Part shown: piece after piece, positions 414-18,317 of the stretch
Layout: every line of letters begins with the position of its first letter
How positions within the stretch are numbered: the stretch's first letter is position 1
DNA from: Shigella phage VB_Ship_A7
Sequence record: MK685668
DNA: 40,058 nt
Reading direction: 5' to 3' (one strand)
Made by a program: the position numbers and the translations under genes
The notes under the pieces: generated by a model
Told to the model about the DNA's origin: nothing
What the model saw: the letters and a program-made list of their open reading frames with translations, nothing else
The model's database searches: none

Positions 414-569
414 CTAAGGAACACAAGTGAGTAGAGAACAAAGCAGAGTCTCCAGTTCACCGATGTGTTCAACACTAGATGCGAGACCAATGGAAGCAGC
501 AAGTACAACGAGAAATTTGTAGGTCACTCGATGCGTTGCTAGTGTCTTAAGCACGGATAGTAATCGCAT
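414..569 (-). CDS. Small protein at the T7 gene 19.5 position (51 aa, hand-translated MRLLSVLKTLATHRV...)
   Basis: ATG at 569-567 with GGAGG 7 nt upstream, stop TAG at 416-414; lies between the phiOR-type promoter and the terminal repeat, as T7 gene 19.5 (49 aa) does. Below the ORF-track size cutoff. Confidence 0.45.
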   Translation of the reverse strand: MRLLSVLKTLATHRVTYKFLVVLAASIGLASSVEHIGELETLLCSLLTCVP

Positions 570-737
570 AGAGCGTCCTCCTTGTTATACTTGATGGTTA
601 CACTGATAGTTAGGGATGTAATTACTATTACCATCATCCCTCACTGTAAGGGTCTCTAAGAGTAGACTTTAAGTAGTCACTAAGTATGCACTTTGCATAT
701 GCAGTCTTTAAGTGTCTTTAAGTTGTCTTAGGGGGCC

Positions 738-16364: not shown

Positions 16365-16955
16365 TTAACGAGACAGCAGACCACCAGTGAAGGCATCGCC
16401 ATCAAGCATGTTGAAGCCACCAAAGTCCAGTTCATACTCGTGACATTGCATCTTCGCTTCCTGTTCTTCTTCAGCTAACACCGCGTCAATCTCAGGCGCA
16501 CCAAAGAATCGGTTGTTGAACTGACGAGCGGCCTTAGTGACAATCCAATGGCGAAAGCATTCAGGCATCTCATAGAACTCTCTCAGTTTGATAATGGTCA
16601 CTGTGATAGGGTTCTGAAATACATCAGTACCAGTGGTCCGGTCAAAGACGTATCCACCACGGTTCACATAGGCAGTCGCTCCACCTTCAGAGAGTACAGA
16701 CAGGTAGTCGGACATGTACGGAATCAATCCATTAAACACATCAGGGAGCAACTGTTGGCCTTCCTCAATGTTGAACGTCCATCCCTTTGACTGAATCTGA
16801 CGGTTAATCTTATTAAGCACTCGACGCGCGTTAGCAACATCAGCGTTAGCATCACCCTCCAAAGTGGAGACAGGCGATTCACCGATAGATGCCAAGATGT
16901 CATTTATAGCAGACAACTCTTCTCCCGTCTCTAGGGTAGTTTCATAGGAACGCAT
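16365..16955 (-). CDS. 11: Tail tubular protein A
   Basis: 196 aa, same as T7 gp11; starts [39 protein letters not shown]. Confidence 0.95.
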
Positions 16956-16975
16956 AGTGTATCCTCCTTGTAGCG

Positions 16976-17014
16976 AAAAAACCCCTCAAGCACCCGCGAA
17001 GGCACCCAAGGGGT
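16976..17014 (-). terminator. Intrinsic terminator downstream of the capsid gene (T7 Tphi equivalent)
   Basis: Minus-strand RNA CCCCUUGGGUGCC-UUCGCG-GGUGCUUGAGGGG followed by UUUUUU; 13-bp stem that includes G-U pairs, as in T7 Tphi. Confidence 0.75.
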
Positions 17015-17028
17015 TTCATATAGTTTAC

Positions 17029-18188
17029 TTAATGTTCAGCAGCCAGTTTCGCCGCCTTGTTAGCAGCACGGGTACGAGCAGCTTTCTGTTGTGGCGTTAG
17101 CTCTTGCTCAACTTCAGTAGGAGACTCAGTGTCCCCTACGAGTTTGCGAGAAGTTAAGCCGCTGTGAAAACCAGCGCACCTACTGCTTCAGGACGCAGAC
17201 CACCGTGACCCATCGCGTACTTAGCGATAATCTGGTCAGCCTGATAGTTAGCACGACGAGCACGTTCCAGCGCCATATCTTTCAACTTAACAGTACCAAC
17301 GGCAGAGCGGTGGCAGAACAGACCGACCACATTGTCCAGAGCAACTTTATCGTTACCAGTAGCAGTCGCAGGGAATGCGTGTTTCTGTTCAGAAGTTACA
17401 TCTTCACGGTCATTACCAGCACCACCAGCGGTCAAATGTGGAACTTCAATAACTTCGAAGCCCATTACGTTGCGGATAGAACCAGTTGCCGGGTCAATCA
17501 GTGCCTGATAGTTTGCAGCGTTAGGCATCAGAGCCGCCAGAATAGCAGAGTAGTTATCAGGAGTGGTATAGAAGGTACGGTCCGCAGACGGAACATAGTT
17601 CTTAGTCAGACGGGCACGAGCCAGAGTCAACTGTGCAATGATAGCCTGACCCAGCTTAACTTGGTCGCCTTGCAGGTCAGCCGCAGTGCCTACTTCCAGA
17701 ACACTTGCAGTACCCAAGCCAGCGATGTTCTCGTTGGAAGCAGCCGGAAGGTTACACAATTTAGCCATTTCAGCCAGAACTGCGCCATCAGCAGCCAGAG
17801 CCAGAGACTCACCCAACTGAGCGGTATATTCGGAACGCACGTCATAGTGGTTCATTGCGTCTTCGATGTCGTAAATCAGAACGTCAGCAGTCAGCAGGCC
17901 ATCAATGTTAATGGTCTTCTCAGTGTGCTTCATGTCTTTACGTTTGTCATCGAGGTTCTCACCCGGTTGCAGATAAGCAGCTTTGGTACGACCCAGCACA
18001 GGGAACTGCGCGGACTTACCGGACTGAATAGAACGCACGAGGTGTTTGTTCATAGTTACGGAGGTACGGGTAAATGCAGTCAGAACTTCACCGCCGAAGA
18101 CCTTCAGGAACAGAGCCAGTTTATCACCAGCGCTCATGCCTTTACCTTGGTCCTTACCAATCTGTTGTCCACCAGTCATGTTAGCCAT
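17029..18188 (-). CDS. 10: Minor capsid protein 10B, produced by a -1 programmed frameshift near the end of 10A
   Basis: Slippery heptamer G GUU UUC at 17166-17172 (minus strand) four codons before the 10A stop; the -1 frame stays open for 46 codons (FHSGLTSRKLVGDTESPTEVEQELTPQQKAARTRAANKAAKLAAEH) to a TAA at 17029-17031. Confidence 0.65.
17154..18188 (-). CDS. 10: Major capsid protein 10A
   Basis: 344 aa starting MANMTGGQQIGKDQGKG and ending MGHGGLRPEAVGALVFTAA, strongly similar to T7 gp10A (345 aa). Confidence 0.97.
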   Translation of the reverse strand: MANMTGGQQIGKDQGKGMSAGDKLALFLKVFGGEVLTAFTRTSVTMNKHLVRSIQSGKSAQFPVLGRTKAAYLQPGENLDDKRKDMKHTEKTINIDGLLTADVLIYDIEDAMNHYDVRSEYTAQLGESLALAADGAVLAEMAKLCNLPAASNENIAGLGTASVLEVGTAADLQGDQVKLGQAIIAQLTLARARLTKNYVPSADRTFYTTPDNYSAILAALMPNAANYQALIDPATGSIRNVMGFEVIEVPHLTAGGAGNDREDVTSEQKHAFPATATGNDKVALDNVVGLFCHRSAVGTVKLKDMALERARRANYQADQIIAKYAMGHGGLRPEAVGALVFTAA

Positions 18189-18294
18189 GTTGAATCTCCT
18201 TCTGTTGATTTATGATAAAAGTTTAAATGTGAGGTACTACTTGAAACGAGTTGGTTCTCATTGTGTATCACTCAAAGTGGGAGAACGTAATGTC

Positions 18295-18317
18295 TCTCCC
18301 AATAGTGAGTCGTATTA
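18295..18317 (-). promoter_or_regulatory. T7-type phage promoter (phi10 position)
   Basis: Minus strand reads TAATACGACTCACTATTGGGAGA, followed by a leader with AAGGAG SD before the capsid ATG. Confidence 0.85.

What the first reader, a model, noticed from the sequence alone, without database searches (positions are those of the whole stretch)
17029..17172. Programmed -1 ribosomal frameshift generating a C-terminally extended capsid protein (10B)
The heptamer G GUU UUC sits 4 codons before the 10A stop (minus strand, 17166-17172). After a -1 slip the frame remains open for 46 codons and ends at a TAA at 17029-17031, a few bases before the terminator hairpin. This reproduces the T7 10A/10B arrangement, and the open -1 frame is unlikely by chance.
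Basis: partly seen in the sequence, partly recalled or inferred. Interest (0 to 1): 0.45.

Follow-up and report, generated by a model that had tools for sequence, protein, structure and literature searches.

The report
T7-type capsid gene frameshift site
This is the well-known T7-type "slip back one base" signal at the end of a phage capsid gene. It gives a minority of capsid proteins a 45-residue tail; it is real and conserved, but ordinary for this phage group.

Summary
The window is a T7-like phage of genus Berlinvirus, about 93.5% identical to its nearest record. Gene 10A (17154-18188, minus strand) ends CUG GUU UUC ACA GCG GCU UAA. G GUU UUC lies at 17172-17166, in the same phase and at the same distance from the stop as in T7.

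The -1 frame is open only from 17187, after a TGA at 17190-17188. After the slip it runs 45 sense codons to TAA at 17031-17029, predicting a 386-aa, 41.1 kDa 10B against a 36.5 kDa 10A.

Openness alone is weak evidence, since 14% of shuffles stay open. Conservation is decisive:
- The tail carries LTPxQKAARTRAANKA, shared with T7 10B. Variant codons there are 32 synonymous to 4 non-synonymous in the 10B frame, against 2:34 and 1:33 in the other frames.
- All 26 distinct relatives that have this tail and a terminal Val-Phe use GUU UUC. Relatives without an extension mostly use GUC or GUG.
- Congeneric phage Kvp1 has mass-spectrometric proof of 10B, and the BP12A record annotates the same heptamer.

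Extra: a two-helix hairpin starts 6 nt after the heptamer and encloses the 10A stop. It covaries in 9 of 19 pairs and is probably the local stimulator.

Verdict: supported, already known, low interest.

The parts
17154..18188 (-). Gene 10A, the major capsid protein: 344 aa, 36.5 kDa, ending ...GALVFTAA*
   Evidence: ORF list. Pfam Gp10A-like PF21703, E = 1.2e-107. 97.9% nucleotide identity to Escherichia phage P151 over the gene 10 region. Mass.
17166..17172 (-). Slippery heptamer G GUU UUC. GUU (Val340) sits in the P site and UUC (Phe341) in the A site. It is 16 nt before the first base of the 10A stop.
   Evidence: Same sequence, phase and distance as in T7. Annotated as a 'potential frame slippage site' in Salmonella phage BP12A. 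All 26 distinct relatives that have the RTRAANK-type tail and a terminal Val-Phe use GTT TTC.
17188..17190 (-). TGA in the -1 frame. It closes that frame upstream, so a productive -1 shift must happen within the last 10 codons of 10A.
   Evidence: (-1 frame open from -31) and direct reading.
17029..17166 (-). 10B-specific coding region in the -1 frame: 45 sense codons (HSGLTSRKLVGDTESPTEVEQELTPQQKAARTRAANKAAKLAAEH) plus TAA at 17031-17029. The predicted 10B is 386 aa, 41.1 kDa.
   Evidence: It has no ATG/GTG/TTG-initiated ORF of its own on this strand. Third codon positions are more diverse than first and second (0.45 against 0.26 and 0.25) across 28 distinct relatives.
17053..17100 (-). Codons for the conserved peptide LTPQQKAARTRAANKA. 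This is the core of the tail and is predicted to be a basic alpha-helix.
   Evidence: Across 28 distinct sequences, 16 of 16 third positions vary but only 1 of 16 second positions. Variant codons are 32 synonymous to 4 non-synonymous in the 10B frame, against 2:34 and 1:33 in the other frames. Single-sequence AlphaFold2 gives a helix over tail residues 25-44 with pLDDT of about 88-92.
17106..17159 (-). Two-helix RNA hairpin starting 6 nt 3' of the heptamer. Helix 1 pairs 17159-17150 with 17115-17106 and contains the 10A UAA. A 10-nt internal loop lies at 17149-17140. Helix 2 pairs 17139-17131 with 17125-17117, with its loop at 17130-17126. It is the probable local frameshift stimulator.
   Evidence: Free energy -23.6 kcal/mol, z = -4.5, 76% of the ensemble. 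RNAalifold gives the same structure on 12 distinct relatives. 99.1% of cells are paired and 9 of 19 pairs show double compensatory changes. No shuffle out of 500 reaches this, and the slid controls are 29-54% paired.
16975..17017 (-). T-phi-type terminator hairpin (17017-16978) with a U tract, 11 nt after the 10B stop. The CCCC in its 5' arm (17013-17010) is the counterpart of the T7 element reported to affect frameshifting.
   Evidence: Fold -25.5 kcal/mol, z = -3.3. Terminator scan. Aligns with the annotated terminators of BA14 and FE44. Role of the T7 CCCC: PMC5009743.

Best explanation
**What it is.** This is the orthologue, in a Berlinvirus phage, of the T7 gene 10 programmed -1 ribosomal frameshift.

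**How it works.**
- Most ribosomes read CUG GUU UUC ACA GCG GCU UAA and release 10A (344 aa).
- A minority slip back one base. This happens with tRNA-Val on GUU in the P site and tRNA-Phe on UUC in the A site. The tRNAs re-pair with GGU and UUU.
- Those ribosomes then read 45 further codons in the -1 frame and stop at the TAA at 17031-17029, just before the late terminator.
- The product, 10B (386 aa, 41.1 kDa), is a full capsid protein with an added C-terminal tail. The tail is a variable linker of about 22 residues followed by a conserved basic helix (LTPxQKAARTRAANKA...).
- The RNA that encodes the linker folds into a two-helix hairpin starting 6 nt after the heptamer and enclosing the 10A stop codon. 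This hairpin most likely slows the ribosome over the slippery site and raises slippage above the level the heptamer gives alone.

**Shown here.**
- The sequence anatomy, and its homology to T7 and Kvp1.
- Purifying selection on the tail in the 10B frame.
- Co-occurrence of the slippery codons with the tail across relatives.
- Covariation of the hairpin.

**Inferred.**
- That this phage actually makes 10B, and how much. In T7 the level is about 10%.
- That the hairpin is the stimulator.
- That the tail is displayed on the outside of the capsid. This follows from the use of the T7 10B C-terminus for phage display, which is my own knowledge.
- What the tail does remains unknown.

The confidence of 0.9 applies to the frameshift itself. 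For the hairpin as stimulator I put it at about 0.55-0.6.
For: - **Anatomy:**
- **Homology:** the capsid is a Gp10A-like protein. The predicted 10B is 74% identical to T7 10B. Rebuilding T7 10B by the same method gives the known 398 aa. The tail matches PHROG 12582 'head protein'.
- **Selection on the tail:** codon-position diversity is 0.26, 0.25 and 0.45 for positions 1, 2 and 3. In the motif, variant codons are 32 synonymous to 4 non-synonymous in the 10B frame, against 2:34 and 1:33 in the other frames.
- **Association of heptamer and tail:** all 26 distinct relatives with the tail and a terminal Val-Phe use GTT TTC. Relatives with a short or no extension use GTC TTC (12), GTG TTC (4) and GTA TTT (1), and GTT TTC in only 2 of 19.
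- **Replacement of the heptamer:** one relative replaced it with another slippery site, G GUA AAG, and kept the tail. BA14 has G GUU UUA followed by an in-frame A AAA AAG.
- **Uniqueness in this genome:** it is the only one of 9 in-frame slippery heptamers whose -1 product passes the zero-frame stop.
- **Experiment in relatives:** Kvp1, same genus and same heptamer, has MS/MS peptides of 10B produced by -1 frameshifting at TTTTCA (PMC2579914; identity of L012 with Kvp1). T7 is described as using G_GU as X_XX and as depending on a terminator CCCC (PMC5009743).
- **A stimulator is needed:** the heptamer alone gives under 1% frameshifting against about 10% in wild-type T7 (PMC1635266).
- **Hairpin:**
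Against: - No protein data exist for this phage.
- Openness of the -1 frame and the heptamer count are not significant by themselves.
- The linker half of the tail shows little protein-level constraint (pN/pS 0.6-1.2).
- One relative (L010) carries a premature stop in the tail, so the tail can be lost. This agrees with 10B being dispensable in T7 in the laboratory (my own knowledge).
- The covariation that supports the hairpin comes almost entirely from two divergent lineages, the Helsettvirus-type and the Unyawovirus-type.
- In the T7 group an analogous fold is compatible with the sequences but no better supported than shuffles.
- A covariance model of the hairpin does not find the other lineages convincingly (E = 0.02-0.7).
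- The published T7 stimulator is a distant terminator element, not a local hairpin.
Confidence: 0.9

Rival explanations
1. The arrangement is an inherited relic. The heptamer and the open frame are kept by descent from a T7-like ancestor, but this phage makes no meaningful amount of 10B.
For: 10B is not essential in T7 (my own knowledge). One relative has a nonsense mutation in the tail (L010). Many T7-like phages have no extension at all. Openness alone is not significant.
Against: The tail motif shows 32 synonymous to 4 non-synonymous variant codons across lineages that differ at more than half of their synonymous sites. The slippery codon pair is invariant wherever the tail is present and is replaced by synonymous non-slippery codons where it is absent. 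The window's copy is intact in every element. The hairpin has kept its pairing through compensatory changes.
Confidence: 0.04
2. The tail is made, but by a shift elsewhere in the 10-codon overlap or by another mechanism. One candidate is RNA polymerase slippage on the T run, which would give a -1 mRNA.
For: The overlap window of 31 nt allows other positions in principle. Many relatives also have AAA AAG just after the heptamer.
Against: The window has ACA GCG in place of AAA AAG, so no second slippery site exists. The T run is only four bases, far below the roughly eight or more needed for transcriptional slippage (established knowledge). Kvp1 MS/MS places the shift at TTTTCA (PMC2579914). The T7 site was mapped to G GUU UUC (PMC5009743).
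Confidence: 0.03
3. The sequence after the 10A stop is conserved only as RNA, for example as a 3' UTR structure for mRNA stability or termination, and is not translated.
For: Two strong structures lie in this region: the covarying hairpin and the terminator. The linker half shows weak protein-level constraint.
Against: In the motif the substitutions are periodic. All 16 third positions vary and only one second position does, and the changes are synonymous only in the 10B frame. Length differences between lineages keep the motif in the -1 frame. Peptides from this region were detected in Kvp1.
Confidence: 0.02

Closest known systems
Bacteriophage T7 gene 10A/10B programmed -1 frameshift (Condron, Atkins and Gesteland 1991, as cited in PMC5009743, PMC1635266 and PMC2579914)
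   Same: - The heptamer G GUU UUC is identical, in the same phase and 16 nt before the 10A stop.
- The tail has no start codon and ends just before the T-phi terminator.
- The tail shares LTPxQ(K/E)AARTRAANKA.
- The terminator 5' arm carries CCCC.
   Different: - The tail is 45 residues after the slip against 57 in T7, and the linker sequence is unrelated.
- The terminator is about 155 nt from the shift site, against about 185 nt in T7 by my count and 'over 200' in the review.
- The local hairpin has a different sequence. It covaries in the Berlinvirus, Helsettvirus and Unyawovirus lineages, whereas the analogous T7-group fold has no covariation support.
Kluyvera phage Kvp1 10A/10B (genus Berlinvirus; PMC2579914)
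   Same: - It belongs to the same genus, with a capsid 89% identical in amino acids.
- It has the same heptamer and the same hairpin apart from wobble changes.
- The tail is the same up to ...RTRAANKA.
- 10B was shown by MS/MS and is annotated as 'results from ribosomal frameshifting'.
   Different: - The tail ends ...ARKEAELAATE in Kvp1 and ...AKLAAEH here.
- The spacer is AACAAG there and ACAGCG here.
- The Kvp1 authors saw 'no typical slippage site'. They pointed to a pseudoknot at the terminator, not to the local hairpin.
T3 / phiYeO3-12-type gene 10 frameshift
   Same: It is also a -1 frameshift at the very end of the homologous capsid gene, and it also gives a C-terminally extended minor capsid protein.
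   Different: It slips on C CCA AAG (Lys), not on G GUU UUC. It adds a Big_2 Ig-like domain of about 85-95 residues (Pfam E = 1e-15), not a short helix.
E. coli dnaX -1 frameshift (A AAA AAG, upstream Shine-Dalgarno, hairpin 6 nt downstream)
   Same: It is a bacterial-ribosome -1 frameshift with a stable hairpin beginning 6 nt after the heptamer (the dnaX spacing is my own knowledge).
   Different: The heptamer differs. There is no convincing upstream Shine-Dalgarno stimulator: AGGUG lies only 4 nt before the heptamer and is fixed by the Gly-Ala codons. The hairpin here is two helices with a 10-nt internal loop, and it contains the zero-frame stop codon.

Membership tests
T7-type gene 10 -1 programmed ribosomal frameshift (10A/10B) | The host gene is the T7-like major capsid protein gp10A | tested here: met
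   Pfam PF21703 Gp10A-like, E = 1.2e-107. 74% identity to T7 10B over 383 residues. It lies between the scaffold gene and tail-tube gene homologues.
T7-type gene 10 -1 programmed ribosomal frameshift (10A/10B) | Heptamer G GUU UUC in the phase G|GUU|UUC, a few codons before the 10A stop | tested here: met
   17172-17166, 16 nt before the stop, exactly as in T7.
T7-type gene 10 -1 programmed ribosomal frameshift (10A/10B) | A -1 frame ORF that overlaps only the end of 10A, has no initiation codon of its own, and encodes a tail homologous to the T7 10B tail | tested here: met
   The -1 frame is open from 17187 to 17032. No start-initiated ORF is listed there. Tail against T7 tail, E = 2e-12. PHROG 12582, E = 1.6e-14.
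T7-type gene 10 -1 programmed ribosomal frameshift (10A/10B) | The tail evolves as protein-coding sequence in the -1 frame | tested here: met
   In the motif, 32 synonymous to 4 non-synonymous variant codons in the 10B frame, against 2:34 and 1:33 in the other frames. Whole-tail pN/pS is 0.34-0.74.
T7-type gene 10 -1 programmed ribosomal frameshift (10A/10B) | A 3' stimulatory element; in T7 this is a CCCC in the 5' arm of the T-phi terminator | tested here: inconclusive
   The homologous terminator with CCCC is present at 17013-17010, but its function cannot be tested here. A local covarying hairpin is present as well. The primary T7 papers are not in the library.
T7-type gene 10 -1 programmed ribosomal frameshift (10A/10B) | A minor capsid species of the predicted larger size is actually made and incorporated into virions | not testable with these tools
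   This was shown for T7 and for the congener Kvp1. For this phage it is an inference.
T3-type gene 10 frameshift with Ig-like extension | Heptamer C CCA AAG and a Big_2 Ig-like domain in the -1 frame | tested here: not met
   There is no CCCAAAG at the end of 10A. The tail has no Pfam hit, whereas T3-type tails match Big_2.
Transcriptional (RNA polymerase) slippage | A long homopolymer run, roughly 8 or more A or T, at the shift site | tested here: not met
   The run is T4 only.

The most novel reading that the evidence does not exclude
The two-helix hairpin at 17159-17106 may be the proximal stimulator of gene 10 frameshifting in the Berlinvirus, Helsettvirus and Unyawovirus lineages. It starts 6 nt after the heptamer, encloses the 10A stop codon, and covaries in 9 of 19 pairs.

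It is not mentioned in the papers I could read. The Kvp1 and AP5 authors looked for pseudoknots and found none near the site. The 2016 frameshifting review calls the T7 stimulator an unexplained long-range effect.

If this is right, the 'linker' half of the 10B tail is constrained as RNA and only the C-terminal helix as protein. Lineage-specific hairpins at the same place in other T7-like phages would then do the same job.

I could not read the two 1991 Condron papers, so prior description cannot be excluded.
Probability: 0.4. Interest if true: 0.35.

Novelty: already known. Interest (0 to 1): 0.17.

Why it matters
For annotation, this genome should carry a joined 10B CDS: 18188..17166 joined to 17166..17029 on the minus strand, giving 386 aa. 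Most relatives' records omit it or call the tail as a separate small ORF.

Biologically it adds nothing new to the T7 paradigm, but two by-products may be useful to people who study recoding:
- There is comparative evidence for a local, covarying stimulatory hairpin, in a system whose stimulator is still described as an unexplained long-range effect.
- The short T7-type tail has a strictly conserved basic helix across at least three named genera. These are Teseptimavirus, Berlinvirus and Helsettvirus, with Unyawovirus also named and several unassigned lineages besides. Its function is unknown, although it is the site used for T7 phage display.

Tried and rejected
1. **Openness of the -1 frame as evidence by itself.** Rejected as weak: 14% of shuffles stay open.
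2. **Enrichment of the heptamer in the window.** None: 5 found against 5.2 expected.
3. **An upstream Shine-Dalgarno stimulator.** AGGUG lies 4 nt before the heptamer. It is fixed by the conserved Gly-Ala codons and is at the wrong spacing for -1 stimulation, so it was not pursued.
4. **Long-range pairing of the terminator CCCC with the G run in helix 2.**
   - RNAduplex gives -13.5 kcal/mol here and -11.1 kcal/mol in T7.
   - The G run is not conserved within the T7 group, so there is no comparative support.
5. **Pairing of the conserved internal loop with the terminator** (-11.7 kcal/mol). Speculative and not tested further.
6. **Rfam.** No family matches 16900-17300 at E up to 1.
7. **A covariance model of the hairpin searched against 68 sources.**
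   - Only the window and the Helsettvirus-type (L016) and Unyawovirus-type (L031) loci score strongly.
   - T7-type and other lineages reach only E = 0.02-0.7.
   - The hairpins of other lineages are therefore analogues, not demonstrable homologues.
8. **Covariation within the T7 group.** None beyond shuffles.
9. **Searching 5.8 billion proteins with the tail.** Only 4 small ORF calls, all from T7-like phages, because gene callers do not call a start-less ORF. This gave no functional clue.
10. **Pfam on the tail.** No hit.
11. **A pattern scan for the motif in IMG/VR.** It found 36 stretches, mostly the same phages. It also found one unrelated stand-alone ORF (L104) and one low-complexity basic protein (L099). 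The L104 ORF runs off its contig.
12. **The primary Condron 1991 and Sipley 1991 papers.** They are not held in the library.

Full report
**What the window is**

The gene 10 region matches 788 phage records. The best matches are all Berlinvirus: Escherichia phage P151 at 97.9%, Yersinia phage WW1 at 97.4% and P483 at 95.2%. Over 24 kb the nearest record is P483, at 93.5% identity over 93% of the query. The window is therefore a T7-like phage of the genus Berlinvirus that is not itself in the reference collection. Its late genes lie on the minus strand.

The ORF at 17154-18188 (minus strand, 344 aa) is the major capsid protein (Pfam Gp10A-like, E = 1.2e-107). It is flanked by scaffold and tail-tube homologues, as in T7. 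A T7-type promoter, TAATACGACTCACTATTGGGAGA, lies upstream at 18317-18295. A T-phi-type terminator hairpin lies downstream at 17017-16978.

**Checking the observation**

- GGTTTTC is at 17172-17166 on the minus strand.
- The zero frame reads CUG GUU UUC ACA GCG GCU UAA.
- Read from the first G of the heptamer, the -1 frame gives GFHSGLTSRKLVGDTESPTEVEQELTPQQKAARTRAANKAAKLAAEH*. That is 45 sense codons after the slip and then TAA at 17031-17029, 11 nt before the terminator stem.
- The -1 frame is closed upstream by a TGA at 17190-17188. A productive shift can therefore occur only in the last 10 codons of 10A.
- The predicted proteins are 10A at 344 aa and 36.5 kDa, and 10B at 386 aa and 41.1 kDa. 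Applying the same reconstruction to T7 returns the known 398 aa 10B.

**Is it more than chance?**

Taken one at a time, the features are weak:
- The heptamer occurs 5 times in the window against 5.2 expected.
- 14% of shuffles of the 135-nt extension remain open.
- 1.3% of all -1 positions inside genes are open for 45 codons or more.

Taken together, they stand out. Among 30 long ORFs there are only 9 in-frame slippery heptamers. Only the gene 10 heptamer lets the -1 product pass the zero-frame stop, and it has the longest -1 run.

**Comparative evidence**

I collected 80 relatives of the capsid gene from IMG/VR, plus annotated records from GenBank.

*The tail peptide.* Thirty-four loci (28 distinct DNA sequences) carry a short -1 tail with the peptide LTPxQKAARTRAANKA. 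The set includes T7 itself, with LTPAQEAARTRAANKA.
- In the 16 codons of this motif every third position varies, and only one second position does.
- Variant codons are 32 synonymous to 4 non-synonymous in the 10B frame, against 2:34 and 1:33 in the other two frames.
- This is the signature of a translated sequence under purifying selection.
- The first half of the tail is much less constrained as protein (pN/pS 0.6-1.2).

*The slippery codons track the tail.*
- All 26 distinct tail-bearing sequences that end in Val-Phe use GTT TTC.
- Relatives with a short or no extension use GTC TTC (12), GTG TTC (4) or GTA TTT (1), and GTT TTC in only 2 of 19.
- The first base of the heptamer is free: G, A or C.
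- One lineage (L044) replaced the site with G GUA AAG and kept the tail.
- BA14 has G GUU UUA followed by an in-frame A AAA AAG.

*Other lineages.* Some T7-like lineages use C CCA AAG or G GUU UUC to add a Big_2 Ig-like domain instead. This agrees with the published contrast between T3 and T7 (PMC5009743).

**Experimental anchor**

- L012 is Kluyvera phage Kvp1 (100% identity), a Berlinvirus. It has the same heptamer and the same downstream RNA.
- Its 43.6 kDa virion band gave MS/MS peptides unique to the 10B tail. The authors concluded that it arises by programmed -1 frameshifting at TTTTCA (PMC2579914).
- The GenBank record joins the 10B CDS accordingly.
- The BP12A record marks the same heptamer as a potential frame slippage site. 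The BA14 record notes translation via a slippery sequence.
- PHROG 12582 ('head protein') matches the window's -1 ORF (E = 1.6e-14).

The feature is therefore already known and already annotated in congeners.

**Mechanism, and a by-product**

In T7 the heptamer transplanted on its own gives under 1% frameshifting, against about 10% in the phage (PMC1635266). The only stimulator mentioned in the 2016 review is an unexplained long-range effect of a CCCC in the terminator (PMC5009743).

In the window, the RNA right after the heptamer folds into a two-helix hairpin:
- Helix 1 pairs 17159-17150 with 17115-17106. It starts 6 nt after the heptamer and contains the 10A UAA.
- Helix 2 pairs 17139-17131 with 17125-17117.
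- The free energy is -23.6 kcal/mol, z = -4.5, and the fold takes 76% of the ensemble.

Comparative support for this hairpin:
- On 12 distinct sequences from Berlinvirus-, Helsettvirus- and Unyawovirus-type phages, RNAalifold predicts the same fold.
- 99.1% of cells are paired, and 9 of 19 pairs show changes on both sides.
- No shuffle out of 500 reaches the observed values, and the slid controls are 29-54% paired.

Caveats:
- Nearly all the double changes come from two divergent lineages: L016 (same as fPS-52) and L031 (same as phiPccP-1).
- In the T7 group an analogous outer helix, also enclosing the UAA and starting 7 nt after the heptamer, plus an inner hairpin, is predicted. It has no covariation beyond shuffles.
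- A covariance model of the Berlinvirus-type hairpin does not convincingly find other lineages. Each of those lineages does, however, have its own strong hairpin at a similar place.
- Rfam has nothing here.

I read the hairpin as the likely local stimulator, with a probability of about 0.55-0.6. I could not read the 1991 primary papers, so I cannot say whether this was tested in T7.

**The product**

- A single-sequence AlphaFold2 model of the tail gives a coil for residues 1-24 and a helix for residues 25-44, at pLDDT of about 88-92.
- The tail has no Pfam domain, and a database search gave no functional lead.
- Its function is unknown.
- Its C-terminal position on gp10 implies display on the outer capsid surface. 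This rests on my own knowledge of T7 phage display.

**Verdict**

This is an orthologous instance of a textbook recoding event, so its novelty is 'already known' and its interest is low. The hairpin covariation and the strictly conserved tail helix are the only points a specialist might follow up.

Noticed in passing
window 17106-17159 (-): A two-helix hairpin starts 6 nt after the heptamer and encloses the 10A stop codon. It shows compensatory changes in 9 of 19 pairs across Berlinvirus-, Helsettvirus- and Unyawovirus-type phages. Its 10-nt internal loop (UCGCAAACUC) is nearly invariant even where both helices have changed sequence.
   Followed up: yes
L006 (IMGVR_UViG_2974609713_000001) about 2516-2810; L125 (Klebsiella phage M2-DAzarov): The L006 capsid protein is 97% identical to the window's. 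It carries GGTTTTC 22 nt before the stop and a completely different -1 extension of about 90 residues (HLGLSVNTFSARMVTP...), with no Pfam hit. The same extension is seen in Klebsiella phages. The tail module has therefore been exchanged between almost identical capsid genes.
   Followed up: partly
L010 (IMGVR_UViG_2700988866_000001), about 63 nt after the heptamer: A G-to-T change (GAAGTTGAG to GAAGTTTAG) creates a TAG in the 10B frame. It truncates the tail before the conserved helix, and the same change breaks a U-G pair of helix 1. This looks like natural loss of the tail.
   Followed up: partly
L002 (Escherichia phage BA14) 1486-1501; L044: BA14 has G GUU UUA followed by an in-frame A AAA AAG, the dnaX-type heptamer. 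L044 has G GUA AAG in place of G GUU UUC. In both the same tail is kept, so the slippery site is replaceable.
   Followed up: partly
L104 (IMGVR_UViG_3300000405_001496) about 560-720 (-): In an unrelated viral contig, a stand-alone ORF begins MTKKQVIAPVELTRGQKAARTRAANKAAR..., which is the 10B tail motif at the N-terminus of another protein. The ORF runs off the contig end, and its function and context are unknown.
   Followed up: partly
L124 (Rahnella phage Sarma103) about 375-480: This phage has a shorter tail with the same motif. Its predicted 13-bp helix pairs GAGUGCGCGUAGC with the motif-coding GCUGCGCGUACUC, which is a different downstream structure from the Berlinvirus one.
   Followed up: no
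window 18295-18317 (-) and about 18196-18201 (-): A T7-type late promoter, TAATACGACTCACTATTGGGAGA, differs by one base from the T7 consensus. A strong AAGGAG ribosome-binding site lies ahead of gene 10.
   Followed up: no
L003 (285P), L122 (fPS-52), L123 (phiPccP-1), L126 (BSP161): Several GenBank records annotate the 10B tail as a separate small CDS starting at an internal codon, instead of as a frameshifted join. P151, the closest relative, does not annotate it at all.
   Followed up: partly
L017 (Yersinia phage PYPS50), after the 10B stop: In this relative an extra small gene with its own GGAGG site is inserted between the 10B stop and the usual terminator position. The terminator is therefore not adjacent to 10B there.
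   Followed up: no
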